A stretch of 64,000 bases of DNA from an archaeon (GCA_018651605.1 JABIDS010000010.1:32053-96052), one strand, 5' to 3'; counted from the first letter of the stretch, positions 30,531 to 43,959 are shown. Program-made: numbers and translations. Notes: generated by a model not told the origin, from the sequence alone.

Positions 30531-31415
30531 TCAATACTTCTCTCTTCTTTTCTTCTTCTTCCACCTTCTCCAAAACCACCAACCAACACCCAAAACCACC
30601 AAACCAATAATAACATTCCTCAAAGTCTGACTCTTAACCTTTCCTAAATCTTTTCCACTATGCATAGTCAAAACTGCTGCAACCTCGTCCTCAATAGGAT
30701 TATTCATAGCATCCTTATAAGTAATTTTCAAAGGAATCAAAACCTCATCATTACCCTTCACTTTAATCCTATAATCAACAGACTCAAAATCATCAGAATC
30801 CAAATCACCAACATAAACTTTCTTCGGAGACAAAATCTTATACCTCTCAGATTCTTTTAACTCAACAGTCAAAAATTTAATATCTGCAACATTATTATTA
30901 ACAAATTTAACACTTATCTCTCCCAACTTTTTACCTCTATAAACATCACTCTCCTCAATCTGAACATACATCTTTGGTTTACTCTTAACAATTATAGAAA
31001 TTTTATATTCATCATTTCTCTCCTCACCAATATGGTTAATATAATCAACACTCAAATTAGCAACATAAATTCCTTCAGAAATTCCTGGCAAAGCAATGAT
31101 ACTAAACTCCATTACCCCACTACCTTCTGAAACTAATTTAAAAATCTTTTTTTGAGAAACATCATTAAACATCCCAATCTCATCAGGAAGTTTTAATTCT
31201 GCCCTAATATCTTTAGTAAATTCATTTCCCTGATTACTTATCTCTGCCCTCAATATTGCAGCAACACCAGGCTCAATAGTCGCAGGCTCTGTTTCCAAAC
31301 CATCAACAACAATTACATGTCCAAAATTCAATCTCTGCCAATTATCTGTATCTAATGCACTTACTCCAGCTACAAAAAATACAACCATTACAATCAAAAT
31401 TAATTTCATCCTCAT
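30531..31415 (-). CDS. Secreted, C-terminally anchored Ig-like/CARDB-like surface protein (COG1361-like)
   Basis: It has a signal peptide, two beta-rich modules, the motif YVGDLDSDDFESVDYRIKV, and a C-terminal TM plus polybasic tail WWFWRRWKKKKRREKY. It is a paralog of 47201-48079. Confidence 0.6.
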   Translation of the reverse strand: MRMKLILIVMVVFFVAGVSALDTDNWQRLNFGHVIVVDGLETEPATIEPGVAAILRAEISNQGNEFTKDIRAELKLPDEIGMFNDVSQKKIFKLVSEGSGVMEFSIIALPGISEGIYVANLSVDYINHIGEERNDEYKISIIVKSKPKMYVQIEESDVYRGKKLGEISVKFVNNNVADIKFLTVELKESERYKILSPKKVYVGDLDSDDFESVDYRIKVKGNDEVLIPLKITYKDAMNNPIEDEVAAVLTMHSGKDLGKVKSQTLRNVIIGLVVLGVGWWFWRRWKKKKRREKY

Positions 31416-31451
31416 TTTTATATTATATCAATAACACTCTCCTTTAAAAAG

Positions 31452-32666
31452 TTACTCATACCTCAAAGCATCCACTGGCCTTAATTTACTTGCTTGATAA
31501 GAAGGTAAAAACCCCGCCAACACACCAACAACAAAAGCAAAAGCCAATGAACCAAAGATAATCATAGGGTCCATAGATGCCCTCAACATATCCACACCAA
31601 AAACAACCCTCGCAGTATATTCAATTCCTTTTGAAATAATAATCCCCACAATAACTCCCAAACCCCCTCCAACCAATCCAAGAATCCCAGATTCAATAAC
31701 AAAAATACTAAGTATATCTTCATTCCTCGCACCAACAGCCTTCATAGTTCCAATCTCCTTCTGCCTCTCTAAAACAGAAGTATACATAGTATTAGCAATT
31801 CCAATCCCTCCAACCAACATAGAAATAGCCCCAATACCCAAAAGAAAACCAATCAAAATATTAAACACCATTCCAAAAGTTTCCATAATTGCTTCAGGAG
31901 TCAAGATAGAAAAATCAACAGTCTTCTCATCAACATCTCTAAAATTCATTAATTTTTTCTTAACTCTTGCAGAGACTTCACTCATATCCTCACCTTCCTT
32001 AATCTCAATCCAAAGCATATCAACTCTATCTCCAGAATCAAACAATTCCTGAAAATCATTAAAATTAATATAAACCTGCTGATCATCTCCAGGATTCCCA
32101 ACCTCACTAACAATCCCTGCAACCTCAAATTCAATATCATTAACTTCAACACTATCTCCAGGTTTAACATTCTTACCCATTAGTTTTCTATGCCCATAAT
32201 TATAACCCATAAGAATCTTTTTACTATCACTATCTTTCAAAAATCTTCCATCTTCTACTTCAATCCCAGAAGCTTCAAAAACTAATTGAGCTTCTTTTTC
32301 ATCTTCAGGCAATCCAAGAACAAAATAATATCGCGTTTTTTCATTAAACTCCATTTTTCCATTTCCAATAACAAAATATGTCACATCCTCAATACCTTTA
32401 ATTTTTTTAACAATTTCATAATCATCTAAAGTTAATTCAACAGCACCCTCCCCACCAAAACCACTTGCTGAACCTTTGGGCTGTATAAAAAATTTATTCC
32501 CTCCCAACATTTCAAATTGGTCATCAACAAAATCCTTCAAACCCAAAGACAAACTCAACAAAACAAAAATCGTAACAATAGCTAAAAAAATCCCCAAGAT
32601 AGTTAACACACTTCTAGCTTTTCTTTCAACCAAACTTCTAATCGAGAGTCTTAAATAATCATGCAT
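31452..32666 (-). CDS. ABC transporter permease, FtsX/MacB type
   Basis: The N-terminus is SIRSLVERKARSVLTILGIFLAIVTI. A large extracytoplasmic domain follows, then C-terminal FtsX helices with GIANTMYTSVLERQKEIGTMKAVGA and a RPVDALRYE ending. Confidence 0.8.
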   Translation of the reverse strand: MHDYLRLSIRSLVERKARSVLTILGIFLAIVTIFVLLSLSLGLKDFVDDQFEMLGGNKFFIQPKGSASGFGGEGAVELTLDDYEIVKKIKGIEDVTYFVIGNGKMEFNEKTRYYFVLGLPEDEKEAQLVFEASGIEVEDGRFLKDSDSKKILMGYNYGHRKLMGKNVKPGDSVEVNDIEFEVAGIVSEVGNPGDDQQVYINFNDFQELFDSGDRVDMLWIEIKEGEDMSEVSARVKKKLMNFRDVDEKTVDFSILTPEAIMETFGMVFNILIGFLLGIGAISMLVGGIGIANTMYTSVLERQKEIGTMKAVGARNEDILSIFVIESGILGLVGGGLGVIVGIIISKGIEYTARVVFGVDMLRASMDPMIIFGSLAFAFVVGVLAGFLPSYQASKLRPVDALRYE

Positions 32667-32824
32667 TTTAATTCAACACCTTTTATAACATATTATCTAA
32701 AGGAGACTTTATATTTTTAATTGTTCCAACAGAGCCTTATACCATATAAAATTTCAAGACAAAAACATTTAAATACTAAGTAAAGCTAAGTAATAATAAA
32801 TCACAATAAGTATTACTAAGTAAA

Positions 32825-32965
32825 ATGAAAAAAGAGGAAAAACTGAAGAAATTTTTATTAGAAATTCCTGAAGAAATATGGGAAAAATGGAAGCTCACAG
32901 TTCCTCGTTCTATTTCATTAAATAAAGCATTAATAGAGTTATTAAAAAAGGAAGGAAAAAAATGA
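32825..32965 (+). CDS. Small ribbon-helix-helix (CopG/Arc-like) protein, 46 aa
   Basis: This ORF is below the ORF-track cutoff. The translation is MKKEEKLKKFLLEIPEEIWEKWKLTVPRSISLNKALIELLKKEGKK. Its TGA overlaps the ATG of the 1311-aa gene (ATGA at 32962-32965). Confidence 0.5.
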   Translation: MKKEEKLKKFLLEIPEEIWEKWKLTVPRSISLNKALIELLKKEGKK

Positions 32966-35900
32966 AATTTAAAATTATTTTGTTTCTTTTTGCACTTATC
33001 TTTTCATTAAATTTAGTTTCAGGGTTTTTAATCTCAGATCAAGGAACCAATGTAATAAACTTAACTTCAGGAAATTTAACAATATTAGCTAATTTAACAA
33101 TTAGTATATATGATAATGTCACTGGAGGAAATTTAGTCTTTGAACAAAATTTCAGCGATGGAATAGCCAATGGTTCCTGGAATGTAATGATTGATCCAAC
33201 CCTAGAATACGGAATAAGTTATTATAAAGATTATAAAATAAATAACGAAGACCTTGATTTTGATGGTAATGAAAGACTAGAATTTCAATCATCAGTTGGA
33301 GAAATTAATAATGTTTCATTTATTAATTTCTCAATAATAAACTCATGTTCTGCTGGAAGTTCAATAAGATTAATCTATGAAAATGGTAGTGTAGAGTGCG
33401 AGTCAGATGATGATTCTGGAAGTTTAAATATTACAAATTATGCATTAAAAAATCAATCAGAAACATTTACAGGCAATATCACAACTTCCCAAACAGGATT
33501 CTTTGGCTGGCTTGGAAGTTTAACTTCACGAATAACAAAATTATTCGCACAAGATATTAATTTCAATGGAACAATTAATGGAAGTGGGAATATAAATATT
33601 ACAGGAAATGTAACTGCAGAGTATTATTATGGAGATGGTTCACAATTATCTAATCTTCCTTCAACAGCAGGTGAAGGAATATATAATTCAACTTCATGGA
33701 ATAGGACTGAAGGAAACGTAACTCTAGCTAATCCTGGAGATTATGTTGGTATAGGAACAACAACACCAAACAATTTATTACAGGTAGAGGGATTAATTAA
33801 TTTTGAACCGGTTAGTTATAATATTGGATTAGGAATTTCAACACTTGCAGAATTAACAACCGGACTTAGAAATATTGCTATTGGAAGTGAAGCAGGAGAG
33901 AAATTAACAGAAGGGAATAATAATGTTTTTGTTGGAGATAAGGCAGGAGAAGAAACCACAACAGGAGATAATAATATAGCCTTTGGAAGAAATGCTCTTA
34001 CTGAGAATGTAGATGGTTATAGAAACTTTGCTATAGGTGACGGGGCTCTTTCTTCAAGTGCTACTACTTCTGATAATATGGGATTAGGACTTAATTCATT
34101 AGGTTTTTTAATTTATGGAACGCAAAATACCGCGATTGGGGGTTCTAGTTTAAGATTTACAGCAAAAGGAGATAGTAATGTAGGGATAGGTTATAGGGCA
34201 GGGAAAGGTATAGAAGGAGATTCTAATAAAAGCGACAATGTTTTTATAGGGCACGAAAGTGCATTGGATGTTTTATCAGGTGCAGATGAAAATGTAATAA
34301 TTGGTTCTTCATCAGGTGCTGGATTAACAACAGGAGCAAGTAATATATTTATAGGATATAAATCAGGATTTAATCAAAATACAAGTTCAAATACTTTAAT
34401 TATAGATAATCAGGATAGAGGAAGTATTATTAATGAAATAAGTAAATCCTTGATTTACGGAACATTTGATGCAGACCCTAATAATCAAAATTTAACTTTT
34501 AATGCAAATGTAGGTATAGGAACATCCTCACCAAACCAAAAACTAGAAGTCAATGGTTCAGGAAACTTTTCAGGTAATGTTTCAGCAGACTATTTCTGTA
34601 ATTCAACAGGAAGTTGTTGGAATACTCAAGGTGGTGCAAGCGGAGGTGATGCAAACTACCAATTCACAGATAATAATTTTAATGGGAGTGGAGATTTTAC
34701 AACAACTGGGGAAATTATTATTGAGGAAGACAACAAAAAACTATTATTAGGTGCAGGACAAGATGCTTCAATATTTTATAATGGTTCTGATATGATTATA
34801 AATCCTCAAGAGGTAGGTGATGGAGATTTACTTTTAACAGATGGTTCAAATACTTTAAGAAATACTTTAACAGGAACAAGGTATGTTTATAATTATGATG
34901 GAACTCAATATGATTTCCAAATAAATGGAACAAGTCATTTTAAAGTTACTTCAGCTACAAGTGGGATTTCAGTTGGTGACCAAGTTGAAGATTCTTTTAT
35001 AACTATGGGATCAGGTAATTATTTCACCTGGGATGCTGATGAAGATAGAATTAAAACTATTGGTGACTTTGGAATTTCAAGCACCTTTTCTTTTACTTCA
35101 AACACAGGATATCCTGATTATTTTGAACATATAGATATTGAAGAAGGTGATAAGTATTTAAAATGGAATATGAATAATTCAAATTATTATAATTGGTATT
35201 TTGATGAAGAAGAATTTATGAGATTAGATAGTATAGGGAATTTTACTATTCAAGGAAACATAACTGCAGACTATTTCTGTAATTCAACAGGAAGTTGTTG
35301 GAATACTCAAGGTGGTGCAAGCGGAGGTGATGCAAGTTACCAATTCACAGATAATAATTTTAATGGTTCAGGTAATTTTACAACTTTAGGAAATGTTGGA
35401 ATTGGAACTAATACTCCTAGTGACTTATTAAGTCTCAGTGCTTTAAATCCTACTTTTAAAATTTATGCTGATGGTGGTGGTGAAGCTAGGATTTGGATGC
35501 GTTCTAATAATGCAAATGAACAATCAGAAATTAAAATGCTTAGTGGAGGATTATGGGAATTTAGACATTTAGGTGAGGATGAAGATATTGTCTTTAGTGT
35601 TAATGATGGTGGTGTAGATACCGAATCTATGAGAATACAGGGAGATTCAGGTAATGTTGGAATTGGAACTGATAATCCTAGTGAATTATTACATTTATCT
35701 GCAGATAACCCAGTTCTTAGATTATCTGCAGAAACAGGTAGTTCAGCAACTATTAATCTGAGAGGTAATAATGCTAATGAAAATGCAACTATAACTATGT
35801 TGAATGATGGAGAATGGAGTTTTAAACATTCTGGAGAGGATGAGGATATTGTCTTTAATGTTAATGATGGTGGTGTGGATACAGAAATTATGAGGATAGA

Positions 35901-36897
35901 GGGAGAATCAGGTTATTTAGGTATTGGAACTGATAATCCTAGTGAATTATTACATATTAACGGAACGCAAGAAATGACTATGGATGGAAATTCTATTAAT
36001 TTTTTAAATAATGGAACAGCATTTATAAAAGCAACAGACCCTATTGGTGATTTATATTTAGGTACAGGAGGGGCTTCTAATACAATGATTATGCGTTCAA
36101 CAGGAAATATTATATTTAATGAAGCGAGTTTAGACGCAGATTTTAGAATTGAGGGTGATGATGATGCTTATACTTTTTTTATTAAAGGTTCATCAAATAA
36201 TGTTGGTATTGGAACAAAATTCCCAAGCCAAAAACTAGAAGTTAATGGTTCAGGAAACTTTTCAGGTAATGTTTCAGCAGACTATTTCTGTAATTCAACA
36301 GGAAGTTGTTGGAATACTCAAGGAGGTGCAAGTGGTGGAGATGCAAACTACCAATTCACAAATAATAATTTTAATGGGAGTGGAAATTTTACAACTTCTG
36401 GAAGAATTGGTATTGGGACAGATAGTCCATGGACTTCATTGGACATTAAGACTGATGCAACTGATGCAGTGCATGATGATAGTGATATGATGACAATACC
36501 TGATGCATCAGATGCATTATTTATACACAACGAAAATACTGCAGCCAACTTTGTAGGGTTGATATTAAGAAATCGTGTTGGTGGGGCTTCAGTTTGGGGA
36601 ATTTTTAATGAACACCAAGGCATAGATTATGGAGACTTAGTGTTTAGAGGGCGAAGGTCAGGCGGTTCTAAAGAAGTAATGAGATTAGAAGCTGATACAG
36701 GCAACGTCGGAATCGGAACAACAACCCCAACCCAAAGACTAGAAGTTAATGGAACCATTAATGTTACAGAAGATATCATCGCAAGCGGAGATATTAATGC
36801 AACAGGAAATATAACAACAACAGACACTTTCTGCTTTACTTCAGATTGCTCAGCTAAAATGTATCATAATGGTACTGGAATAATAATCTCTAGTTAA
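32962..36897 (+). CDS. Giant (1311 aa) secreted, sequon-rich repeat protein (fibre/adhesin-like)
   Basis: It has a signal peptide (MKFKIILFLFALIFSLNLVSG) and many N-x-S/T sequons. It has degenerate N-x-A-I-G repeats and eight copies of the motif (N/Y)(V/L)GIGT..P...L.(V/L). A 40-58-aa module occurs three times. Confidence 0.75.
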   Translation: MKFKIILFLFALIFSLNLVSGFLISDQGTNVINLTSGNLTILANLTISIYDNVTGGNLVFEQNFSDGIANGSWNVMIDPTLEYGISYYKDYKINNEDLDFDGNERLEFQSSVGEINNVSFINFSIINSCSAGSSIRLIYENGSVECESDDDSGSLNITNYALKNQSETFTGNITTSQTGFFGWLGSLTSRITKLFAQDINFNGTINGSGNINITGNVTAEYYYGDGSQLSNLPSTAGEGIYNSTSWNRTEGNVTLANPGDYVGIGTTTPNNLLQVEGLINFEPVSYNIGLGISTLAELTTGLRNIAIGSEAGEKLTEGNNNVFVGDKAGEETTTGDNNIAFGRNALTENVDGYRNFAIGDGALSSSATTSDNMGLGLNSLGFLIYGTQNTAIGGSSLRFTAKGDSNVGIGYRAGKGIEGDSNKSDNVFIGHESALDVLSGADENVIIGSSSGAGLTTGASNIFIGYKSGFNQNTSSNTLIIDNQDRGSIINEISKSLIYGTFDADPNNQNLTFNANVGIGTSSPNQKLEVNGSGNFSGNVSADYFCNSTGSCWNTQGGASGGDANYQFTDNNFNGSGDFTTTGEIIIEEDNKKLLLGAGQDASIFYNGSDMIINPQEVGDGDLLLTDGSNTLRNTLTGTRYVYNYDGTQYDFQINGTSHFKVTSATSGISVGDQVEDSFITMGSGNYFTWDADEDRIKTIGDFGISSTFSFTSNTGYPDYFEHIDIEEGDKYLKWNMNNSNYYNWYFDEEEFMRLDSIGNFTIQGNITADYFCNSTGSCWNTQGGASGGDASYQFTDNNFNGSGNFTTLGNVGIGTNTPSDLLSLSALNPTFKIYADGGGEARIWMRSNNANEQSEIKMLSGGLWEFRHLGEDEDIVFSVNDGGVDTESMRIQGDSGNVGIGTDNPSELLHLSADNPVLRLSAETGSSATINLRGNNANENATITMLNDGEWSFKHSGEDEDIVFNVNDGGVDTEIMRIEGESGYLGIGTDNPSELLHINGTQEMTMDGNSINFLNNGTAFIKATDPIGDLYLGTGGASNTMIMRSTGNIIFNEASLDADFRIEGDDDAYTFFIKGSSNNVGIGTKFPSQKLEVNGSGNFSGNVSADYFCNSTGSCWNTQGGASGGDANYQFTNNNFNGSGNFTTSGRIGIGTDSPWTSLDIKTDATDAVHDDSDMMTIPDASDALFIHNENTAANFVGLILRNRVGGASVWGIFNEHQGIDYGDLVFRGRRSGGSKEVMRLEADTGNVGIGTTTPTQRLEVNGTINVTEDIIASGDINATGNITTTDTFCFTSDCSAKMYHNGTGIIISS
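34531..34703 (+). repeat. Intragenic near-identical DNA repeat R1 (173 nt)
   Basis: It encodes PNQKLEVNGSGNFSGNVSADYFCNSTGSCWNTQGGASGGDANYQFTDNNFNGSGDFT and is nearly identical to 36223-36395. Confidence 0.85.
35266..35385 (+). repeat. Intragenic repeat R2 (120 nt, shorter copy)
   Basis: It encodes ADYFCNSTGSCWNTQGGASGGDASYQFTDNNFNGSGNFT and matches the distal part of R1 and R3. Confidence 0.85.
36223..36395 (+). repeat. Intragenic repeat R3 (173 nt)
   Basis: It has the same 173-nt unit as R1, with only a handful of substitutions visible by eye. Confidence 0.85.
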
Positions 36898-36898
36898 A

Positions 36899-39800
36899 AT
36901 GGAATTAGAATTAAATAAAAAAAAATTTATTTTGCTTGTATTGTTGCCGACAGTTATATTTTTTAATCTTTTTCTACCCTTTGTAACAGCTGTAGCAGAA
37001 ATTTGTGAAGGATGCGGTGTATTTATGGGAACTAATGATACTGTCGGAACTGATTTCAATGCTGATGATACTTATTCTGCATTAAAGTGGTCAACTCAAG
37101 ATTATGATGATAATCATCTTACATACTCTGCAGGTAATCCAACCAGAATCGAAGTTGACACCACTGGTGATTATTTTATAGCATTAAATTTGCCACTTAT
37201 TGATTTATCTTATTCTGGTTCAAATGATCAGAGAGCAGCTATTGAAGCTGCTGTTTATGTCGATGGAACAATAGTTCCTGTTGGAACAGGACGAGGTTCT
37301 TATATGAGGGGTACTGACGGAAGTTATGATCATTTTCAAACAGGATCTAATCTTAATGTTTTAGTTCCAGATGTTAGTGCTGGAAGTTATATTGAAATAT
37401 ATGTTAGAGGAGTAGCAGAAACAAATGAAGCAATTGGAGCAAATGATATGTTTGCATTATATGTTGAATATATACAACCAGAAGAAGAAATTTTCTTTGC
37501 AACAGGTACAACTTCAACAGCTCCCTCATCTAATACTGACCTGAATCAAGATGCTACTTGGGCATATGATATGGAATGGACAGAGTATAGGAAAGATAGT
37601 ACTTTTACCCACGATGATGTTACAGATTCCAATGTTATTACCTTAGCTGATATTGGTTATTATTATGTTACTGTAAATATTCCACAAGGAGCAGCAGCAA
37701 CTAGAAGTAATGTTGGAGGCAGAGTTGAATTAGATGACACTATTGTTGATGGCGGAACATTTATGCAAGGTTATATTCGTAATACTGATTCTCCAGCACA
37801 TCAAGATAGTAGTGTACATTGGGCAGGTTTAGTAGAAACAACTAGTACTAACCAGGATTTAACTATTGGAATAAATCGAATGACTTCAACTACAACCACC
37901 ATTACAACCGACGGTTTAAACGCTACTGTTTATGTTAAAAAAATAGCAAATGGAAATACAGGACTTTTTCATTCCATTACTACAAATGTAACAGGAGCTG
38001 CTCCTGATGACTGGAATCCTGCAACTACTCAATATGCCATATGGTCTACTGATAATGAGAAAGACACTGATTATTATACTCATACAAATGGAGAGGAAAA
38101 CATAACAGTATTACAAGAGGGTTATTATTTGATAAGTTTTAATAGTCCGCAAACAGTTCCTTCTGGTTTAAGGTCACACCCTCAATATGATATTAGAGTT
38201 AATGGAGCAACTATTGATGCTGGAAGAACTGGTTCATCTTATATGAGAGATTCAGGTGGTCATGACGAATCAACTACTATGATAACCTACTTTGCTAATC
38301 TTTCTGCAGGAGATAATGTTTCAATTAGTGTGGTTGAAGGAGACTCAACTTTAGGAAGCACAGTTTCTGATGCTGACGAAGGAGTTATCTTAATAGAATA
38401 TAAAGAAAAGGGCTCCAATGTAGAATGGAGTATTCCCACCTTAGATATGGGTGCAAAACTTCAAGCAAATGGGAATATTACAGGTTATGTAAATGTTACT
38501 GCTTCAGGAGATCAGAATGAGGTGAATGTTACTTGCGAGTCAGGAAACTGCACAGAAATAACATCTAATTGGACAAATGGAATTGATATGACTAATGGAC
38601 AAATAATTTTAACAGAATTCACATGTTCAAATTCAACAATAGGAAGCCTATCTGCTTATTTCAATATTACTTCTTTAAATGATACTGAACCAAATCAAAT
38701 TAATGGTTTATGTATTATAAGTAATCAACAAACTGTTATCTGGAATCAAACAAGCTTTGATTTAGGGAATGTTTATGATGGAATGGAAACAAATTCAAAT
38801 GCAAGTTTTGATGTTGCTGGCACTAATGAAGATATAACTATTAATGAATTAGAAGGAGATGGAATTAGTTTTATGTCAACAATACCTACTTATGTCGGAA
38901 CTTTGGCAGGAGGCTCTAATCAAGAAGTATTGTTCAATTGCTCTCCTCCTGCAGGACAATCTCCCGGAGAGTATCAAGTTATTTATAATGTTAATTCAAC
39001 AGAAGATTCTGTTGGAAGCAATATAACTATCAATTGCACTATTGCTGCTTCTACTGCTGTCTGGGATTTAGCAACATTGGATTTAGGAAATGTTTATTCA
39101 GGAAATAGTGTTAATTTAGATGAAGGAATAATCTCCACAGGTTTTAATGTTGATGTTGCTGTAAGTGAGTTAGGTGGAGATGGTATTAGTTTTATGTCCG
39201 CAAATACTTCAAGCATTGGAAATATGACTGATGGTTCTTCTTATGAAGTTAAATTTACTTGTTCGCCTCCTGAAGACCAGGCTGCTGGAAGTTATAATGC
39301 AATTTATAATGTCAACACAACGCATAATGCAACAGGCAGGAATATAACTGTAAGTTGCGATGTTTTAGCTGCTTTAATAGAATGGAATCAGAGTTCTTTG
39401 GATGTAGGTTATGGAAATTTGAATGAAGGGAATTTCAGTACAATTATTAAAATAAACTCAACTGGAATAAGCAATAACACAGAAGTAAATTGCGTTTCAG
39501 GAGATTGTTCTGTAATATCACAAAATTACGCAAATGGTGTTAATTTCAGCGACGGAGATTTTGAAGTAATAAACTTTACTTGCGATGATGCAGTTGTTGG
39601 AAGTTATTCTGCAAACTTTAAAGTTAATTCCACACAAAATGCAGCAGGAGATACAGCAACTATAACTTGTAAAATCTATCAAACATATAGTTTATTAAAT
39701 ATTTCTTTACTAGCACCGAATATATCTGAAATAACAAATGTAACTCAGGATCAAACTTTTTGGGTCAATGCAACAGTGAATTGTGTTGGAACAGTTGGAT

Positions 39801-41386
39801 CTTTTTGCGGAAATATTTCAGGAGTTGTGAGAGACAATTCCACAAATCCATTTGGAGATGGGTCTGAGGGAGAATTAAATGTAACATATTTTGATACAGT
39901 GATTAATAATTATACTTATTTAACTATTAATGCAAGTATTGGGACTTCTAATATCAATATTAGTAATGCTTCTGAATTCTCTCCAGGAGATGAAATTTTA
40001 ATTATACAAATTCAAAATTATTCTGGAGGAATGGCAGGAACTTATGAATTTGTGACAATTTCGTCTATTGATGGGCAAAATATTACATTAAATAGGGTTC
40101 TTGAAAACAATTATTATACAGGAGTATTTAATCAGACAAATGCAACAGTTAGCCAAATTGTAAAAATTCCCCACTATACAGATGTTAATATTAATGGTTC
40201 TATTGTTGCTCCTGCTTGGAATGGTTATATTGGAGGAATTGTTGCATTTAAGGCTAATGGAAGTATTAATTTCACAGGTGGAAGTGTCAATGTCAGTGAG
40301 AGAGGTTATAGGGGAGGAGATTGTAATGGTGGAGGGAATAGTGCTTGGGGAGATCAAGGAGAAGGTTTTCTCGGATTAGGAATAGGAACTTTGGATGCTA
40401 ATGCTAATGGTGGTGGTGGAGGTTATGGTCCAAGCGGATATAATGGTGAGCCTGGTGCAGGAGGAGGGCATGGAACTGCTGGAGGAATTGGCGACTCTAC
40501 TGATGGTTATCCCTCTGATGGAGGGTCTGTAGCTGGAACTGAAAATTTAAATTTAATATTTTTTGGAGGTGGAGCAGGTGGAGGAGGAGATAATGATGGT
40601 TGCAATCCCTTTCCAGAATATGTTGATGGCGGAGGAATTGCTATTGTGATTGGAAATAAAATAATAAATGCAACAATAAATGTAGATGGAGAAAAAGGAA
40701 TAGGTAATATTAGTTGCGGAGGTTCAGGAGGTTCAGGAGGAGGAGCAGGTGGAACAGTATGGTTAAGAGCTTTAAATATTACTATAAACAATGTGAGTGC
40801 ATTGGGAAAATTGGGAGGAGTAGCTTCTGACGATACAGGAGGAGCAGGAGGAGATGGAAGAATAAGATTGGATTTTATTACATTTACTGGAAATTCCCCA
40901 GACCCTGTTTCAGGTTATAACGGAACATTGGAAAATATGTATCAAATTAATGAATCCTCTGGAAATCCTTTTTATTCAATTAGTAGTCAATCGCAAGATT
41001 GCGGTTATATGGATTCATCTTCTTCTACATGTCAATTAAATTGGAGTGTAAATGCAACCGGAAATTCAAACTCCTTATGGGAATTTGATGTTTTGTTCTT
41101 TTCAAATATAAGTCAAGTTAATTCAAATAATACAAATAATTCTATTGTTAGAATCTTAGCAGGAGCAGCAATAGACACTTGCACACCTACAGCTGGAAAC
41201 TGGGAAATTGATTGTTCTGATAATTGTGTTAAAAATACTGATTTTACTGTTCCAGATAATATCACTATGACTGGCTCAGGAACACTAACCTTGAATGCCA
41301 ATATGACTTTTACTAAAGCACATTGGAAAATTTATAAAGAAGATAATTGCGAAATAATAATTAATCCTGGAGGAAGTATAAAATGA
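36899..41386 (+). CDS. Giant (1495 aa) secreted modular protein with Gly-rich beta-helix-like region
   Basis: It has an N-terminal hydrophobic signal/anchor. Three N-terminal modules of about 160 aa follow (...YY.T.N.P...SYMR...), then at least four CARDB-like modules ending F(N/T)CSPP..Q..G.Y..IYNVN(S/T)T...G.NIT(I/V).C. A GGxGG-rich segment lies near the C-terminus. The gene starts 1 nt after the upstream stop. Confidence 0.75.
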   Translation: MELELNKKKFILLVLLPTVIFFNLFLPFVTAVAEICEGCGVFMGTNDTVGTDFNADDTYSALKWSTQDYDDNHLTYSAGNPTRIEVDTTGDYFIALNLPLIDLSYSGSNDQRAAIEAAVYVDGTIVPVGTGRGSYMRGTDGSYDHFQTGSNLNVLVPDVSAGSYIEIYVRGVAETNEAIGANDMFALYVEYIQPEEEIFFATGTTSTAPSSNTDLNQDATWAYDMEWTEYRKDSTFTHDDVTDSNVITLADIGYYYVTVNIPQGAAATRSNVGGRVELDDTIVDGGTFMQGYIRNTDSPAHQDSSVHWAGLVETTSTNQDLTIGINRMTSTTTTITTDGLNATVYVKKIANGNTGLFHSITTNVTGAAPDDWNPATTQYAIWSTDNEKDTDYYTHTNGEENITVLQEGYYLISFNSPQTVPSGLRSHPQYDIRVNGATIDAGRTGSSYMRDSGGHDESTTMITYFANLSAGDNVSISVVEGDSTLGSTVSDADEGVILIEYKEKGSNVEWSIPTLDMGAKLQANGNITGYVNVTASGDQNEVNVTCESGNCTEITSNWTNGIDMTNGQIILTEFTCSNSTIGSLSAYFNITSLNDTEPNQINGLCIISNQQTVIWNQTSFDLGNVYDGMETNSNASFDVAGTNEDITINELEGDGISFMSTIPTYVGTLAGGSNQEVLFNCSPPAGQSPGEYQVIYNVNSTEDSVGSNITINCTIAASTAVWDLATLDLGNVYSGNSVNLDEGIISTGFNVDVAVSELGGDGISFMSANTSSIGNMTDGSSYEVKFTCSPPEDQAAGSYNAIYNVNTTHNATGRNITVSCDVLAALIEWNQSSLDVGYGNLNEGNFSTIIKINSTGISNNTEVNCVSGDCSVISQNYANGVNFSDGDFEVINFTCDDAVVGSYSANFKVNSTQNAAGDTATITCKIYQTYSLLNISLLAPNISEITNVTQDQTFWVNATVNCVGTVGSFCGNISGVVRDNSTNPFGDGSEGELNVTYFDTVINNYTYLTINASIGTSNINISNASEFSPGDEILIIQIQNYSGGMAGTYEFVTISSIDGQNITLNRVLENNYYTGVFNQTNATVSQIVKIPHYTDVNINGSIVAPAWNGYIGGIVAFKANGSINFTGGSVNVSERGYRGGDCNGGGNSAWGDQGEGFLGLGIGTLDANANGGGGGYGPSGYNGEPGAGGGHGTAGGIGDSTDGYPSDGGSVAGTENLNLIFFGGGAGGGGDNDGCNPFPEYVDGGGIAIVIGNKIINATINVDGEKGIGNISCGGSGGSGGGAGGTVWLRALNITINNVSALGKLGGVASDDTGGAGGDGRIRLDFITFTGNSPDPVSGYNGTLENMYQINESSGNPFYSISSQSQDCGYMDSSSSTCQLNWSVNATGNSNSLWEFDVLFFSNISQVNSNNTNNSIVRILAGAAIDTCTPTAGNWEIDCSDNCVKNTDFTVPDNITMTGSGTLTLNANMTFTKAHWKIYKEDNCEIIINPGGSIK

Positions 41387-43059
41387 AACAATTAAAAAAA
41401 ACCCAAGTTTTATTTATCTTAATTTTATTTATCACAATTCTCTTTATTCAAAATATATCTGCACTAACTGCAAATTCTTCATCATATTCAGTAAGCATGT
41501 TTGGAACAGGAATGGCAACAGCAACACCTTCTTCAACAAATTATAATCCCACTACATTAACAGAAGCCAAAGGAACAACAAGAAATGCAGAAGGCATAAC
41601 CTATACAGGAAATATCGGATTTTTCAGCAACACCTCTTACCATAAAACAGTGAGTATAACTTCTTACACAATTTATCCAACTTCTGCTGTCCAAGGTTCA
41701 ATAATAAGATTATCAATTTCTGCATTAAATGCTCAATCAACTTGGGCAGTATTAACACTTCCAAATAGCACAGAAAAAACTATTTCCTTAACTAACAATG
41801 GGGACTCATATTATACTGGAAATGATGTTGGAACTTATACTGTAACCTTTTATGCTAATAGTTCATCAGGAAGTCTTGCATCAGCAATAGACACATTTGA
41901 AATAACCTCTCCAACATCAACTACAACCCCTTCTTCTGGAGGAGGAGGTGGCTCAACCACAATAATAGAAAAATGCACTTATGTCTGGGATTGTAGTTCA
42001 TGGAGTATTTGTTCAGATAAATATCAAATAAGAGAATGTAAAAATACAGGAAACTGCAAAGGAATAGAAGGAAAACCAATAGAAAAGAGAATTTGTTCAG
42101 ATGCTTTATTTGATGTAACTATAAAATTTACTGATTTAATAATTACTAAAGAAGATACCTTAGAGTTTAATGTTAATCTAATAGAACAAGAAGGAATAGA
42201 GAAGGTTGATGTTCAGATAAAATACACAATTATAGATAGTAAAGATAATGAAATTTTTAGTCAAATAGAAACAAAGGCAATACAAGAAGAATTAAATTAT
42301 GATAAAGAAATAAAAGAACTTAAATTAGTAGATGGAGAATATATTTTGAGAGTAGACATTCTTTATGGGAATCTTCAAAGGGCATTTGCTGAGCAAAAAT
42401 TTAAAATAAAAAAAGGAGAGCTAGGAACCACCTCAATAGGAGAATTTACAGATAAGTTATTAATAATCCTTGCAAGTTTAATAATCTTATTAATTTTAAT
42501 TATCTTTATCTTATTAAAAAAGAGAAAGAAAGAAGAAAGAAAGCCAAAAACTCATAAGGAATATAAAAATAAAATTAAACAAAACTTGAAAAAGATTAAA
42601 TCTAAAAACACCCTAATTGTCCTTGCAGGTTTTATGTTAATAGGAATTTTATCTATTAGAAAAAATAACATAACAGGATTTATTATAAGAAATACAAATA
42701 TGATTGAAAATAATTTGAATATTTTTTGGATTAGTTTAATATTAGGAGTATCAGGAGTTTTAGTTTTTACTTATAGGAAAAATATTATAGAAAAGATTAA
42801 AACTAAAATGATGAATAAATTTCCAAAAAATAGCCTTAAAGGATTAATAAAAAAGAAGGTTTACCTTGAAGAAGGAAATCTTATTGGAAAAGTTGATGAA
42901 GTTTTTTTGAGTGAAAACAAGATAGATAGTTTAAAGATTAAATTAAATAAGAAACAGAAATACAAGGTTAAAGGAATTATTGTTAAATATAGTTATGTAA
43001 AAAATATAGGACATATTGTTATTATAGATGAAAGAATTTTAGAAAAGTTAAATATATAA
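41383..43059 (+). CDS. Secreted/TM protein with Cys-rich WSxW-like motif and C-terminal PRC-barrel-like domain
   Basis: It has a signal peptide, an Ig-like region, an S/T/G linker, the motif CTYVWDCSSWSICSDKYQIRECKNTGNC and two TM segments. The C-terminus is GKVDEVFLSENKIDSLKIKL...GHIVIIDERI. The start overlaps the upstream stop (ATGA). Confidence 0.6.
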   Translation: MKQLKKTQVLFILILFITILFIQNISALTANSSSYSVSMFGTGMATATPSSTNYNPTTLTEAKGTTRNAEGITYTGNIGFFSNTSYHKTVSITSYTIYPTSAVQGSIIRLSISALNAQSTWAVLTLPNSTEKTISLTNNGDSYYTGNDVGTYTVTFYANSSSGSLASAIDTFEITSPTSTTTPSSGGGGGSTTIIEKCTYVWDCSSWSICSDKYQIRECKNTGNCKGIEGKPIEKRICSDALFDVTIKFTDLIITKEDTLEFNVNLIEQEGIEKVDVQIKYTIIDSKDNEIFSQIETKAIQEELNYDKEIKELKLVDGEYILRVDILYGNLQRAFAEQKFKIKKGELGTTSIGEFTDKLLIILASLIILLILIIFILLKKRKKEERKPKTHKEYKNKIKQNLKKIKSKNTLIVLAGFMLIGILSIRKNNITGFIIRNTNMIENNLNIFWISLILGVSGVLVFTYRKNIIEKIKTKMMNKFPKNSLKGLIKKKVYLEEGNLIGKVDEVFLSENKIDSLKIKLNKKQKYKVKGIIVKYSYVKNIGHIVIIDERILEKLNI

Positions 43060-43348
43060 ATAAAAGATCCCTAATAAAAATATCTAAAGGAGGCTGAAAA
43101 TCGAAACAAAAAAAGAATTATTAACTAGCTCAAAATTAAAGATTTTGAAAAAAGAATTTGAAAGAATTCAAAAAGCTGGAAAGTATTTAGAAGGAGAAAG
43201 AAAGAAATTAATAAGAGAAAAAGAAAAGATTAGAGCTAAAATAAGAAAAGAAAAAGAAATTCTTAGATTAAAGAAAAAGATTAAAAATATAAAAAGTAAA
43301 AAATTCTAAACAAAAACATTTAAATATTGTTATATCCATTGATATAAC

Positions 43349-43624
43349 ATGGAAATAAAACAAATATTAAGATATCCAAGACTCGACACAGTATTAATGG
43401 TAGAGAAAGCCATAAAAGATTTTGATGGAGAATTCAAAAAAAGAGCATTATGGGAAAATCTTCCAAAGAAAATGATGTATCAAACTTTTTGTGTTGTTAT
43501 AGATTATTTACTTTACTCAAGAAAAATCTCTGTAGATTCTGAAGGCAAGATTGGCTGGATATTTTATCCTGAAAATAAAAACGAACATATAAAAAACAAA
43601 AAACTTTTTTGGAATCTAAGATGA
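43349..43624 (+). CDS. Hypothetical small protein, possible antitoxin partner
   Basis: The 91-aa ORF overlaps the downstream RelE-like ORF by 16 nt. There is no diagnostic motif. Confidence 0.35.
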   Translation: MEIKQILRYPRLDTVLMVEKAIKDFDGEFKKRALWENLPKKMMYQTFCVVIDYLLYSRKISVDSEGKIGWIFYPENKNEHIKNKKLFWNLR

Positions 43625-43956
43625 AATTACCTTCAAAAGTAAGATTTAGAGATAATAAAATACAAAAAGCATTTGAAGAATTATTAAAATCTCATTCAGA
43701 TGAAAAGAAAATATATAATTGGTTGGTAAGGGCATTCAAAGATATAGAAGAAAATGCTTTCTGTGGGATTCAAATCCCTAAGAGATTAATTCCAAAACAT
43801 TATATAAATAAGTGCAAAATAAATAATCTTTGGAAATACAATTTACCAAATGCTTGGAGATTGTTATATTCTGTAGAGAATCAAGAAATATTTGTGGTCT
43901 CAATTATCCTCGATTGGATGGACCATAAAACTTATGAAAGAACTTTTAATTATTAA
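43609..43956 (+). CDS. RelE/ParE-superfamily toxin-like protein
   Basis: The C-terminal pattern LWKYNLPNAWRLLYSVENQEIFVVSIILDWMDHKTYERTF resembles the RelE-fold consensus (..yRl.Y.v.....i.v..i..H..Y). The two-gene overlapping layout also fits. Confidence 0.5.
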   Translation: MESKMKLPSKVRFRDNKIQKAFEELLKSHSDEKKIYNWLVRAFKDIEENAFCGIQIPKRLIPKHYINKCKINNLWKYNLPNAWRLLYSVENQEIFVVSIILDWMDHKTYERTFNY

Positions 43957-43959
43957 CTT

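What the first reader, a model, noticed from the sequence alone, without database searches (positions are those of the whole stretch)
32962..43059. 10-kb island of three translationally coupled, sequon-rich giant secreted proteins (1311 + 1495 + 558 aa) flanked by two ABC/surface-protein modules
The three ORFs abut or overlap (36897/36899, and ATGA at 41383-41386). All start with signal-like segments. They are packed with N-x-S/T sequons, with dozens visible (for example NLTSGNLTILANLTISIYDNVTGGN). They are built from internally repeated modules: fibre-like GIGT motifs, three modules of about 160 aa, CARDB-like modules and a Gly-rich helix. Only the last protein has TM anchors and a cytoplasmic PRC-barrel-like end, so it could tether the complex. 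The island has the opposite orientation to both flanking MacB-type modules (30531-32666 and 43960-48079). Together this makes a surface-structure locus of about 20 kb, roughly one third of the window. It is a plausible cell-cell attachment or host-interaction apparatus, and I can assign no function by motif.
Basis: partly seen in the sequence, partly recalled or inferred. Interest (0 to 1): 0.72.

Follow-up and report, generated by a model that had tools for sequence, protein, structure and literature searches.

The report
Modular glycosylated surface-fibre operon of DPANN archaea
This is a real, conserved operon of tiny symbiotic (DPANN) archaea that most likely builds sugar-coated surface fibres, partly made of phage-tail-fibre modules, plugged into a conserved membrane anchor, with outer parts that are swapped between lineages in the way host-recognition proteins usually are.

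Summary
The three ORFs, their coupling, signal peptides, internal repeats and the TM/PRC-barrel tail are all confirmed. Sequons are about 2x enriched in P1 and P2 but not in P3.

A fourth coupled gene was missed: a 46-aa ORF overlapping the P1 start.

Comparison with about 40 Pacearchaeota/Woesearchaeota genome loci shows one conserved, single-copy cassette: small ORF, then a protein carrying P1's N-terminal ~235 aa, then 0-3 variable proteins, then P3.
- Only three modules are conserved: P1 aa 1-235, the last ~100 aa of P2, and P3.
- Everything distal is replaced between lineages.
- P1's distal 1,075 aa is homologous to phage tail fibres and Bdellovibrio MAT fibres.
- P2 is a rare mosaic of three jelly-roll-like modules, four Ig-like repeats and an AgmC_N-like Gly-rich domain.
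- P3's membrane-proximal and TM/PRC modules are fused to the C-termini of at least 24 giant sequon-rich proteins; the few that carry source names are DPANN. This marks P3 as a membrane anchor.

Best reading: a plug-and-socket, N-glycosylated surface-fibre complex with exchangeable binding parts, probably for cell-cell or host contact.

The flanking MacB/CARDB modules are not conserved neighbours, so the "20-kb locus" is unsupported. A two-component S-layer or coat remains the main rival. I found no published description.

The parts
32763..32775 (+). Archaeal BRE/TATA-like promoter element AAACATTTAAATA, about 50 nt upstream of the 46-aa ORF
   Evidence: The motif occurs 7 times in the window against 1.6 expected, in most cases just upstream of ORFs or operons. 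The next exact copy on the + strand is at 43314, downstream of the island. Its promoter function is inferred.
32825..32965 (+). 46-aa small ORF (RHH-like in appearance only). It is the first gene of the operon and overlaps the P1 start by ATGA.
   Evidence: It is conserved at 67-91% identity directly upstream of the P1N-bearing gene in 12 related loci. It is also called as a gene in the JGI annotation. Pfam does not recognise it as RHH.
32962..36897 (+). P1, 1311 aa: a secreted fibre protein with 49 sequons
33031..33666 (+). P1N, the conserved N-terminal base module (aa ~24-235): a beta-sandwich (aa 20-150) followed by a helix (aa 180-196), ending at ...YYGDGSQLSNLP
   Evidence: It is conserved at 56-75% identity in 18-19 cassette loci and in 52 of the 120 best P1 hits, with a sharp loss of similarity after about aa 235-250. 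In the AF2 model the beta-sandwich has pLDDT 66-87 and the rest is disordered as a monomer.
33667..36894 (+). P1 variable distal part (aa 236-1311): tail-spike and tail-fibre-like repeats with seven VGIGTxxPxxxLxV motifs
   Evidence: - PHROG tail spike 1.4e-24 and tail fiber 1.1e-16.
- PDB 8OJN (Bdellovibrio Bd3182 MAT fibre), E 5e-4.
- tblastn hits in 65 phage records in tail-fibre and endosialidase genes.
- Motifs and internal repeats.
- No match in any other cassette.
36899..41386 (+). P2, 1495 aa: a secreted mosaic protein with 64 sequons
   Evidence: Only one full-length homologue was found (P0122, 53% identity).
37016..38413 (+). P2 triplicated ~150-aa modules (aa 40-505), possibly BclA_C/C1q-like jelly rolls
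   Evidence: - Pairwise z scores of 6.8-9.7 against shuffles.
- The block is shared at 70% identity with other DPANN proteins and at 30% with bacterial proteins.
- Pfam BclA_C E 1.7e-5, at 25.1 bits below the cutoff of 38.
- A profile search of the PDB found nothing.
38420..39676 (+). P2, four ~107-aa Ig-like repeats (aa 508-926)
   Evidence: Self-similarity of 33-44% identity. The only Pfam signal is a sub-threshold NPCBM_assoc hit.
39848..40876 (+). P2 Gly-rich domain (aa 984-1326), homologous to the AgmC N-terminal domain
   Evidence: NCBIfam NF047640, E 9.7e-27, 93.9 bits against an equivalog cutoff of 275. It is shared with P0123, P0132 and P0134.
41087..41383 (+). P2C, the conserved Cys-containing C-terminal ~100-aa module
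   Evidence: It forms the extreme C-terminus of the ORF that abuts the P3 homologue in at least 14 loci (L004, L006/L047/L049, L010, L011, L012, L014, L015, L016, L018, L019, L020, L041, L046).
41383..43059 (+). P3, 558 aa: the conserved membrane anchor protein
   Evidence: 162 homologues at 40-74% identity, many of them over the full length; every one that carries a source name is DPANN. 40 genome loci, one per genome.
41464..41652 (+). P3 conserved N-terminal segment (aa 28-90), predicted disordered as a monomer; candidate docking site
   Evidence: It is strongly conserved in alignment A1 yet has pLDDT about 30. It is not part of the stretch matched in any of the giant fusion proteins, with P0312 (match from position 65) as a partial exception. 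The docking role is inferred.
41653..42426 (+). P3 ectodomain stalk: beta-sandwich 1 (aa 91-175), a six-Cys knot (aa 198-238) and beta-sandwich 2 (aa 244-348)
   Evidence: AF2 pLDDT is 74-88, about 58 and about 72 for the three parts. Six cysteines are invariant. Foldseek returns only generic tandem Ig/FnIII matches such as RbmA, SiiE and complement MG domains.
42460..42771 (+). P3 three TM helices (aa 360-378, 407-425, 445-463) with basic cytoplasmic loops
   Evidence: Hydropathy scan and AF2 helices.
42844..43032 (+). P3 cytoplasmic PRC-barrel domain (aa 488-550)
   Evidence: Pfam PF05239, E 3.6e-5, above the cutoff. PDB 8onw/8qzo PRC-barrel proteins, E about 4e-4. pLDDT is about 80.
43145..43309 (+). 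Small basic coiled-coil ORF (54 aa or slightly longer) after P3; possibly the last gene of the unit
   Evidence: Conserved directly downstream of P3 in L007, L029 and L046 at 58-64% identity. It lies upstream of the next promoter-like element at 43314.

Best explanation
The island is one operon: promoter-like element, 46-aa ORF, P1, P2, P3 and possibly a small coiled-coil ORF. The cassette it carries is single-copy in every genome where it was found, all of them Pacearchaeota/Woesearchaeota-type DPANN archaea. It most likely builds a membrane-anchored, heavily N-glycosylated surface-fibre complex of plug-and-socket design.

Proposed mechanism:
1. P3 is the socket. It sits in the membrane by three helices, with a PRC barrel in the cytoplasm, and raises a stalk of two beta-sandwiches and a Cys knot, topped by a conserved N-terminal segment.
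2. P1 is exported by Sec. It assembles into a fibre, probably trimeric, and plugs in through its conserved N-terminal base (aa ~24-235). Its distal 1,075 aa are phage-tail-fibre/MAT-type beta-helix modules.
3. P2 is an optional second passenger. It plugs in through its conserved C-terminal ~100 aa and displays three jelly-roll-like modules, four Ig-like spacers and a Gly-rich domain.
4. Between lineages the docking modules and P3 are kept while the distal parts are replaced wholesale. This is the pattern of receptor-binding proteins, so the fibres probably bind surfaces of other cells, such as the host of an episymbiont.

Shown: the genes, their coupling, the modules, the conservation pattern, the fusions and the homologies.

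Inferred: docking, oligomeric state, glycosylation and the adhesion function.
For: 1. Conserved order and strand in about 40 DPANN loci.
- The P1N module is present in all 15 true-P3 loci that have at least 4.5 kb of upstream sequence.
- The 46-aa ORF is 67-91% identical in 12 loci.
- Adjacent genes often abut or overlap.

2. A sharp modular conservation pattern.
- P1 aa 1-250 is conserved (mean 63% identity) in 18 loci, and nothing beyond that matches.
- The last ~100 aa of P2 end the P3-abutting ORF in at least 14 loci.
- P3 is conserved throughout.

3. Payload exchange.
- The 52 P1N-bearing proteins fall into at least 5 payload types.
- The closest relatives (P3 72-74% identical) carry Laminin_G_3 proteins in place of P2.

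4. Fusion evidence that P3 is an anchor.
- P3's Cys-knot/beta-sandwich/TM module, or its TM/PRC module, forms the C-terminal end of at least 24 giant proteins of 947-6856 aa.
- Most have 3-8 sequons per 100 aa (range 1.3-8.0), and most have a hydrophobic segment at the N-terminus.
- Three were named by a source (P0311, P0312 and P0397, the last a member of P0358's cluster); all three are Pacearchaeota or Nanoarchaeota.
- None of them carries P1N.

5. P1's distal part is homologous to tail fibres.
- PHROG tail spike and tail fiber, 1e-24 and 1e-16.
- Bd3182 MAT fibre (8OJN), E 5e-4.
- 65 phage records.
- Relatives with the same payload type carry YadA_head or Peptidase_S74 domains.

6. Signal peptides are present on all three proteins. 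The positive-inside topology places the PRC barrel in the cytoplasm. Sequons are enriched about 2x in P1 and P2 only.

7. The conserved parts that are predicted disordered as monomers (P3 aa 22-87, P1 aa 152-310) are what one expects of segments that fold on assembly.
Against: - There is no direct evidence of any P1-P3 or P2-P3 contact. No multimer model could be run.
- Monomer models are of low confidence (mean pLDDT 61 and 51), and Foldseek gave only generic Ig-like matches.
- A single copy per genome with clade-wide conservation fits a core envelope component, such as an S-layer or coat, as well as it fits an adhesin.
- No strain-level variation data exist. The only near-identical contigs come from the same population.
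- Glycosylation, expression and trimerisation are untested, and no AglB gene was looked for.
- P2 has only one full-length homologue, so its role in the complex rests on its C-terminal module alone.
- The host, and the symbiotic lifestyle of this organism itself, are assumed from its clade.
Confidence: 0.55

Rival explanations
1. The operon encodes a two-component S-layer or glycoprotein coat, as in Sulfolobales SlaA/SlaB. P1 (and P2) would form the outer, heavily glycosylated canopy or nap that covers the whole cell. P3 would be the membrane-anchored stalk that holds it. The function would be structural or protective, not host recognition.
For: - The operon logic is the same as slaAB: a large glycosylated secreted protein followed by a smaller beta-sandwich membrane-anchored protein. 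That comparison rests on established knowledge and on bioRxiv 10.1101/2023.10.27.564410.
- The cassette is single-copy per genome and conserved across the clade.
- The commonest payload type is extremely sequon-rich, with 63-73 sequons per 800-1000 aa.
- No S-layer protein has yet been established for DPANN archaea.
- A conserved anchoring end with a variable remainder is also known for some bacterial S-layer proteins (my own knowledge).
Against: - P1's distal part is built from trimeric tail-fibre and tail-spike modules, not from the Ig-like arrays typical of archaeal S-layers.
- Payloads are replaced by unrelated architectures between close relatives, including Laminin_G, fibre, repeat stalk with knob, and beta-helix. 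That is hard to reconcile with a lattice that must self-assemble.
- Sequence searches of the PDB with P1, P2 and P3 returned no S-layer protein.
- Other large secreted proteins exist in the window (G1904) that could be the S-layer.
Confidence: 0.2
2. The genes are co-transcribed but do not form a complex. P1 and P2 would be independently secreted or loosely attached adhesins or lectins. P3 would be a separate membrane protein whose cytoplasmic PRC barrel serves another process, such as division-site or envelope organisation like the CdpB-type PRC-barrel proteins.
For: - The PRC barrel matches the archaeal PRC-barrel structures 8onw/8qzo. From my own recollection, not checked here, these may be the cell-division PRC-barrel (CdpB-type) proteins described in bioRxiv 10.1101/2023.03.28.534520 (listed).
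- No contact has been demonstrated.
- P3's ectodomain has only generic Ig-like folds.
Against: - The linkage of P1N, P2C and P3 is obligate across many genomes while everything else varies.
- P3 modules are covalently fused to giant surface proteins elsewhere.
- P1 and P2 have no anchor of their own: no C-terminal TM helix and no sorting signal was seen.
Confidence: 0.12
3. The island and both flanking MacB/FtsX-ABC-CARDB modules form one ~20-kb apparatus, in which the MacB-type transporters export or assemble the fibres.
For: Immediate adjacency on both sides and divergent or convergent orientation in this window. The CARDB-like proteins in the flanks are also surface proteins.
Against: - No MacB, ABC or CARDB homologue lies within 10 kb of the cassette in about 40 related loci.
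- P1-P3 carry ordinary Sec-type signal peptides.
- The two flanking modules are paralogues of each other (MacB 38-47% identical, CARDB 26%) and look self-contained.
Confidence: 0.05
4. The island is a remnant of, or cargo from, a virus or a tailocin-like element. P1 would be a viral receptor-binding fibre and P3 a viral membrane protein.
For: Tail-fibre homology of P1. An IS240-like transposase lies next to the cassette in relatives.
Against: - The P3 family is absent from 2.9 million IMG/VR viral contigs.
- No other virion, packaging or integrase genes are adjacent.
- GC and coding-strand skew are continuous with the chromosome.
- The cassette is single-copy and syntenic across a whole clade.
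- The neighbours are housekeeping genes.
Confidence: 0.03

Closest known systems
Bdellovibrio bacteriovorus mosaic adhesive trimer (MAT) fibres (Caulton et al. 2024, PMC10769870; Bd3182 = PDB 8OJN)
   Same: - They are cell-encoded, phage-tail-fibre-derived surface fibres with chimeric distal parts, used by a cell that lives on other cells.
- P1 aa 885-1006 aligns to the Bd3182 beta-helix (E 5e-4), including the GxGTxxP motif.
- Relatives of P1 carry the S74 chaperone domain, as the S74 subfamily of MAT does.
   Different: - MAT is a family of 21 paralogues in a bacterium. Here there is one cassette per archaeal genome.
- Here there is a separate PRC-barrel membrane anchor, a conserved N-terminal docking module, dense N-glycosylation sequons and a second passenger (P2).
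- P1 itself has no S74 domain.
Phage tail fibres and tail spikes (T5 L-shaped fibre pb1, K1F endosialidase stalk; PHROGs 4636, 18345, 9942)
   Same: - A conserved N-terminal part attaches to the particle and a variable distal part binds the receptor.
- They use beta-helix modules and evolve by module shuffling.
- There is direct sequence similarity.
   Different: The cassette is chromosomal, not in a virion gene set. The fibre is anchored to a cell membrane protein and is glycosylated, and the N-terminal base (P1N) is unrelated to any phage family that was detected.
Bacillus exosporium nap protein BclA
   Same: From my own knowledge of BclA: a glycosylated filament with a TNF/C1q-like jelly-roll head, held on the surface by a short conserved N-terminal domain that docks on a basal-layer protein. 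P2 aa 40-505 gives a weak BclA_C hit (E 1.7e-5), and some P2 relatives carry PF18573.
   Different: There is no collagen-like region. The hit is below the Pfam cutoff. Here the jelly rolls are three in tandem in one chain. The system is archaeal, N-linked and membrane-anchored.
Sulfolobales S-layer pair SlaA/SlaB
   Same: An operon of a large, heavily N-glycosylated outer protein plus a smaller Sec-exported protein with beta-sandwich domains and a membrane anchor. The outer protein is held non-covalently (established knowledge).
   Different: - No sequence similarity was detected.
- P3 has three TM helices plus a PRC barrel, in place of a coiled coil and a single TM helix.
- P1 is fibre-like, and payloads are swapped between relatives.
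Trimeric autotransporter adhesins (YadA family)
   Same: Repetitive beta-roll 'head' repeats of the xNxAIGxxA type in P1 aa ~280-480. A P1-type relative (P0050) carries Pfam YadA_head.
   Different: There is no YadA_anchor beta-barrel and no outer membrane. P1 itself gives no YadA_head or Hep_Hag hit.
Giant DPANN surface proteins ending in the P3-type anchor (e.g. P0311, 'right-handed parallel beta-helix repeat-containing protein', Ca. Pacearchaeota, 1827 aa)
   Same: They share the same Cys-knot/beta-sandwich/TM or TM/PRC module (36-63% identity), are sequon-rich and, for the few with source names, come from the same clade.
   Different: In those proteins passenger and anchor are one polypeptide. 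In the window they are split, with dedicated docking modules (P1N, P2C, the P3 N-terminal part).

Membership tests
Phage tail-fibre / MAT fibre superfamily (P1 distal part) | Sequence homology of the stalk modules to tail-fibre beta-helix modules | tested here: met
   PHROG 4636 at 1.4e-24, 18345 at 1.1e-16 and 9942 at 2.3e-11. PDB 8OJN, E 5e-4. 65 phage records by tblastn.
Phage tail-fibre / MAT fibre superfamily (P1 distal part) | Repeated loop motif of the GxGTxxP type along the stalk | tested here: inconclusive
   P1 has seven VGIGTxxPxxxLxV motifs, and the motif aligns with Bd3182. I did not read the published capping-loop consensus in detail, so equivalence is likely but not shown.
Phage tail-fibre / MAT fibre superfamily (P1 distal part) | Homotrimeric intertwined assembly | not testable with these tools
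   Only monomer prediction was available. The fibre part was not modelled.
Phage tail-fibre / MAT fibre superfamily (P1 distal part) | C-terminal Peptidase_S74 intramolecular chaperone (S74 subfamily only) | tested here: not met
   There is no PF13884 hit in P1. It is present in P1-type relatives P0052 and P0063. P1 would therefore belong to a non-S74 type.
Trimeric autotransporter adhesin (type Vc) | C-terminal YadA_anchor beta-barrel translocator | tested here: not met
   There is no such Pfam hit, and the P1 C-terminus is not hydrophobic.
Trimeric autotransporter adhesin (type Vc) | YadA_head / Hep_Hag repeats | tested here: not met
   P1 aa 247-515 gives no Pfam hit even at E up to 1. Only the relative P0050 has PF05658.
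PRC-barrel domain (PF05239) | Pfam score above the gathering threshold | tested here: met
   P3 aa 488-550 scores 24.1 bits against 21.2. PDB 8onw/8qzo, E about 4e-4. Most homologues carry PF05239.
AgmC (adventurous gliding motility protein) N-terminal domain, NF047640 | Score above the NCBIfam equivalog-domain cutoff | tested here: not met
   93.9 bits against a cutoff of 275, with E 9.7e-27 over profile positions 26-396 of 412. This is a homologous domain, not an AgmC equivalog.
CARDB (PF07705) / NPCBM_assoc Ig-like modules (P2 aa 508-926) | Pfam score above the gathering threshold | tested here: not met
   There is no CARDB hit. NPCBM_assoc scores 19.8-22.7 bits against 24.4. The four-fold repeat itself is real.
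BclA_C / C1q-TNF-like jelly roll (P2 aa 40-505) | Pfam PF18573 above the gathering threshold, or structural similarity | tested here: inconclusive
   25.1 bits against 38, E 1.7e-5, two stretches. Bacterial relatives P0129 and P0130 carry PF18573. A profile search of the PDB was negative.
SlaA/SlaB-type archaeal S-layer | Sequence similarity to known S-layer proteins | tested here: not met
   Pfam, NCBIfam and PDB sequence searches with P1, P2 and P3 returned no S-layer protein.
SlaA/SlaB-type archaeal S-layer | Formation of a 2-D lattice covering the cell | not testable with these tools
   This needs microscopy.
Ribbon-helix-helix regulator (46-aa ORF) | Match to an RHH family profile | tested here: not met
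   There is no RHH family among the Pfam hits at E up to 1. The resemblance is by strand-helix-helix pattern only.

The most novel reading that the evidence does not exclude
The cassette is the host-recognition organelle of Pacearchaeota/Woesearchaeota-type DPANN archaea. It would be a single-copy plug-and-socket device built from domesticated phage-fibre modules, whose exchangeable distal parts set host range. Its anchor's cytoplasmic PRC barrel would tie the contact site to the CdpB-type PRC-barrel/FtsZ division scaffold, so that attachment and symbiont division or positioning are physically coupled.
Probability: 0.15. Interest if true: 0.85.

Novelty: new variant of a known kind. Interest (0 to 1): 0.62.

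Why it matters
Pacearchaeota and Woesearchaeota are among the most abundant uncultured archaea. They are thought to live attached to other cells, yet no attachment machinery is known for them, and according to a 2023 preprint on a cultivated DPANN archaeon not even the S-layer protein of any DPANN archaeon has been established.

This operon offers a concrete candidate that is conserved in every related genome found here:
- a fixed membrane anchor;
- two recognisable docking modules;
- freely exchanged distal binding parts, some clearly shared with phage tail fibres and with the prey-recognition fibres of Bdellovibrio.

If this is correct:
- The P1N module and P3 become sequence markers for finding the host-binding proteins in any such genome.
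- Payload type could be correlated with hosts in metagenomes.
- The anchor and docking domains are small enough for binding and structural tests.
- It would be a second, independent case of cells co-opting viral receptor-binding modules for cell-cell recognition.

Tried and rejected
- **Whole-protein family searches.** Pfam and NCBIfam scans of P1 and P2 were almost blank. Domain-wise rescans added only sub-threshold hits.
- **Structure of P3 and P1N.** The AF2 monomer models of P3 and P1N gave usable beta-sandwich domains only. Foldseek against the PDB returned generic Ig/FnIII matches, which say nothing specific.
- **P2 N-terminal block.** A profile of the block searched against PDB sequences found nothing significant.
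- **Viral origin.** The P3 family has no relative in the IMG/VR viral contigs.
- **Assembly chimera.** This is rejected for 39383-44967, which is 99.97-100% identical in three other assemblies. GC and strand skew are continuous. The upstream junction is seen only in the window's own contig.
- **RHH assignment of the 46-aa ORF.** Pfam does not confirm it.
- **Paralogy with the other giant pair.** There is none between the island and the giant pair at 898-8513.
- **DNA repeats.** A search inside the island found only the in-frame protein repeats and no separate template/variable repeat pair. A diversity-generating retroelement was not searched for elsewhere in the window.
- **Literature.** Three full-text searches found no description of this cassette.
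- **Strain-level hypervariability.** This could not be assessed. The only near-identical contigs come from the same population.

Full report
**1. Observation**

The window has about 32% GC and a strong purine excess on coding strands. It carries archaeal housekeeping genes: ribosomal protein S3Ae, SecD/F, a 5S rRNA and six tRNAs.

P1 ends with TAA at 36897 and P2 starts at 36899. P2 and P3 overlap in ATGA at 41383-41386.

Each protein begins with a single hydrophobic signal-like segment. Only P3 has further membrane helices (aa 360-378, 407-425, 445-463). The basic loops place its C-terminal PRC barrel in the cytoplasm. That barrel scores above the Pfam PF05239 cutoff and matches PDB 8onw/8qzo.

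Sequons are enriched in P1 and P2 but not in P3:
- P1 has 49 against 27 in shuffles (z 4.8).
- P2 has 64 against 29 (z 7.9).
- P3 has 6 against 6.7.
- No other ORF counted in the window exceeds 1.6 sequons per 100 aa. Another giant secreted protein, G1904, is actually depleted.

The internal repeats are real:
- seven VGIGTxxPxxxLxV motifs and several 66-88% identical modules in P1;
- a triplicated ~150-aa module in P2 aa 40-505 (z 6.8-9.7);
- four ~107-aa Ig-like repeats in P2 aa 508-926;
- a Gly-rich domain in P2.

There is no GC break across the island. The segment 39383-44967 is 99.97-100% identical in three independent assemblies.

One element was not listed as part of the island. A 46-aa ORF (32825-32965) overlaps the P1 start codon by ATGA. 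It is preceded by a BRE/TATA-like element, AAACATTTAAATA. The exact motif recurs on the + strand only at 43314, downstream of the island.

**2. What it is**

P3 belongs to a well-populated family: 162 hits at 40-74% identity, many of them over the full length. All that carry names are Pacearchaeota, Woesearchaeota, 'Nanoarchaeota' or unclassified archaeon MAGs.

A scan of one genome per species recovered 40 loci, one per genome, all in DPANN MAGs. ORF calling and comparison of these loci with the window show a conserved cassette on one strand, in this order:
- a small ORF, 67-91% identical to the 46-aa ORF in 12 loci;
- a large protein whose first ~235-250 residues are 56-75% identical to P1 (module P1N);
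- zero to three further large proteins;
- the P3 homologue, often abutting or overlapping the gene before it.

P1N was found in all 15 true-P3 loci that have at least 4.5 kb of upstream sequence.

The conservation profile is strikingly modular:
- P1 aa 1-250 is matched in 18 loci, and aa 250-1311 in none.
- P2 is matched full-length in a single genome (P0122, 53% identity).
- The last ~100 residues of P2 (module P2C) form the extreme C-terminus of whatever ORF abuts P3 in at least 14 loci.
- P3 is matched throughout.

Against the closest P1N homologue, identity is 74% up to ...GDGSQLSNLP (about aa 233) and then vanishes.

The nearest relatives have P3 at 72-74% identity. They carry Laminin_G_3 proteins in place of P2.

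The 52 P1N-bearing proteins among the best 120 P1 hits fall into at least five payload types:
- The commonest type (40 proteins) consists of short repeats with 63-73 sequons per 800-1000 aa. At least one of these ends in what looks, by eye, like a jelly-roll knob.
- P1's own type has 8 members, including proteins with YadA_head or Peptidase_S74 domains.

**3. Module identities**

P1's distal part is homologous to phage receptor-binding fibres:
- PHROG tail spike (1.4e-24) and tail fiber (1.1e-16);
- tblastn hits in 65 phage records, in tail-fibre, endosialidase and endosialidase-chaperone genes;
- PDB 8OJN, which is the beta-helix fibre fragment of Bdellovibrio Bd3182, a 'mosaic adhesive trimer' (PMC10769870).

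P2 is a mosaic:
- Its triplicated N-terminal block is shared at 70% identity with other DPANN proteins in other contexts and at 30% with bacterial proteins. It gives a sub-threshold BclA_C (C1q/TNF-like) hit.
- Its Gly-rich domain is homologous to the AgmC N-terminal domain, far below the equivalog cutoff.

The AF2 model of P3 (mean pLDDT 61) shows two beta-sandwiches separated by a six-cysteine knot, three TM helices and the PRC barrel. The highly conserved segment aa 22-87 is predicted disordered. Foldseek sees only generic tandem Ig/FnIII proteins.

The P1N model (mean pLDDT 51) has a confident beta-sandwich (aa 20-150) and a helix (aa 180-196). It has no specific structural neighbour.

**4. 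Evidence that P3 is an anchor**

An exhaustive profile search found 3,371 proteins at E 1e-3 or better and 144 at 1e-30 or better. Among the best 150 are at least 24 proteins of 947-6856 aa. In these, P3's Cys-knot/second-beta-sandwich/TM module, or its TM/PRC module (up to 63% identical), forms the very C-terminus.

Most of these proteins have a hydrophobic segment at the N-terminus, and most carry 3-8 sequons per 100 aa (range 1.3-8.0). The three for which a source gives a name are Pacearchaeota or Nanoarchaeota: 'right-handed parallel beta-helix repeat-containing protein' (P0311), an unnamed Nanoarchaeota protein (P0312), and 'LamG domain-containing protein' (P0397, a member of P0358's cluster).

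None of them contains P1N. The stretch matched in them does not include the N-terminal segment of P3, with P0312 (match from position 65) as a partial exception.

This is Rosetta-stone evidence:
- The module is a general membrane anchor for giant glycosylated surface proteins in this clade.
- In the window's cassette, passenger and anchor are separate polypeptides.
- The extra conserved modules (P1N, P2C and the P3 N-terminal part) are the obvious candidates for holding them together.

**5. Mechanism (shown versus inferred)**

Shown:
- one promoter-proximal small ORF plus three tightly coupled genes;
- Sec-type signals;
- the topology of P3;
- conserved docking-type modules at the N-terminus of P1 and the C-terminus of P2;
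- wholesale exchange of the distal parts;
- tail-fibre homology of P1;
- anchor fusions.

Inferred:
- P1, probably a trimer, docks by P1N on the P3 ectodomain.
- P2 docks by P2C on the P3 ectodomain.
- Both are N-glycosylated.
- The distal parts bind the surfaces of other cells.
- Exchange of the distal parts tunes specificity.

I put 0.55 on this overall reading. The architectural part (anchor plus docked, exchangeable passengers) is considerably more secure than the host-adhesion function.

**6. Rivals**

- **S-layer or coat (0.2).** This is the main alternative: a SlaA/SlaB-like two-component S-layer or glycoprotein nap. It fits the operon logic, the single copy, the clade-wide conservation and the extreme sequon density. 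The DPANN S-layer is still unidentified. Against it are the fibre-type modules and the replacement of payloads by unrelated architectures between close relatives.
- **Mere co-transcription without a complex (0.12).** This is disfavoured by the obligate linkage and the fusions.
- **The extended 20-kb MacB-linked apparatus (0.05).** No MacB, ABC or CARDB homologue lies within 10 kb of the cassette in related loci.
- **A viral or tailocin remnant (0.03).** This is disfavoured by the absence of P3 from viral contigs and by the chromosomal synteny.

**7. Comparison and novelty**

Functionally, the closest analogues are:
- Bdellovibrio MAT fibres and phage tail fibres, which show the same module homology and the same conserved-base, variable-tip logic;
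- BclA, a glycosylated filament docked by its N-terminus and carrying a TNF-like head;
- SlaA/SlaB, for the operon logic.

It is a member of none of these families as a system:
- It has no S74 domain, no YadA anchor and no S-layer homology.
- The CARDB, BclA_C and AgmC hits are all below their family cutoffs.

What appears undescribed, on three literature searches, is the combination:
- a single-copy cassette recurring across DPANN genomes;
- a PRC-barrel membrane anchor as a separate subunit;
- two dedicated docking modules;
- a conserved small leader ORF.

I rate it a new variant of a known kind, with moderately high interest. It gives a concrete, testable candidate for the attachment apparatus, or at least the major surface appendage, of a large uncultured archaeal group.

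Noticed in passing
window 898-8725 (- strand): A second giant-protein operon. It starts with a BRE/TATA-like element at 8713-8725. Next comes a small 43-aa ORF (about 8494-8622) that weakly resembles the island's 46-aa ORF (40% identity over 42 aa, E 0.25). Then come G634 (6609-8513), whose N-terminus looks like a class III (type IV pilin-like) signal, ...KGQVSVFIILALVIV, and G1904 (898-6612), which has a signal peptide and is sequon-depleted (4 against 13.8 expected). G1904 homologues (40-45% identity) lie about 7 kb upstream of the cassette in L028, L032, L033, L035 and L036. G1904 could be the real S-layer or another appendage.
   Followed up: partly
window 43314-43956 (+): A two-gene unit with its own exact copy of the promoter-like 13-mer: a 91-aa ORF (43349-43624) followed by an overlapping 111/115-aa ORF with weak YoeB/ParE toxin hits (E 7e-4, below cutoff). 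It is probably a toxin-antitoxin pair and not part of the cassette. A homologue of the 91-aa ORF occurs elsewhere in L008.
   Followed up: partly
window 30531-32666 and 43960-48500 (- strand): The two flanking MacB/FtsX plus CARDB-like modules are paralogues (MacB 38-47% identical, CARDB-like 26%). A 168-nt stretch is 81% identical at DNA level (31649-31814 against about 44155-44319). The upstream module has no ATPase gene of its own and sits next to an HTH plus beta-propeller (PF09826) protein (28277-30478).
   Followed up: partly
L006 5041-7201; L047 5173-7270: In the species with P3 62% identical to the window's, the P1N-bearing gene is split into 220-aa and 511/532-aa ORFs in two assemblies (one from NCBI, one from JGI). 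This is a real frameshift or pseudogene, or a recoding site.
   Followed up: no
L046 4796-5758; L047 11939-12862; L049 4955-5878: An IS240-type DDE transposase gene lies immediately downstream of the cassette in the closest relatives. It is absent at the equivalent place in the window.
   Followed up: no
window 41974-42096 (P3 aa 198-238): The invariant six-cysteine motif CxYxWDCxxWSxCSxGxQxRxCxNxGxCxGxExKPxExxxC looks like a thrombospondin type 1 repeat (WxxWSxCS...C). Pfam gave no hit even at E up to 1. The same motif alone matches unrelated proteins in Woesearchaeota and a Methanosarcinales MAG (L042-L044).
   Followed up: partly
window 17992-19617 (+): An unusual fusion of a PD-(D/E)XK/Cas4-like nuclease domain (aa 7-252) with a family 2 glycosyltransferase domain (aa 302-480), followed by a helicase gene (19619-21541).
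   Followed up: no
L011 11928-16100; L027 11563-16035: In some relatives a further giant ORF (1390-1490 aa) follows the P3 homologue on the same strand, so passengers may also be encoded downstream of the anchor.
   Followed up: no
window 57934-59589 (+): A polytopic membrane protein with a PMT_2 (dolichyl-phosphate-mannose protein mannosyltransferase-like) domain. It is a candidate glycosyltransferase for surface proteins. No AglB was looked for.
   Followed up: no
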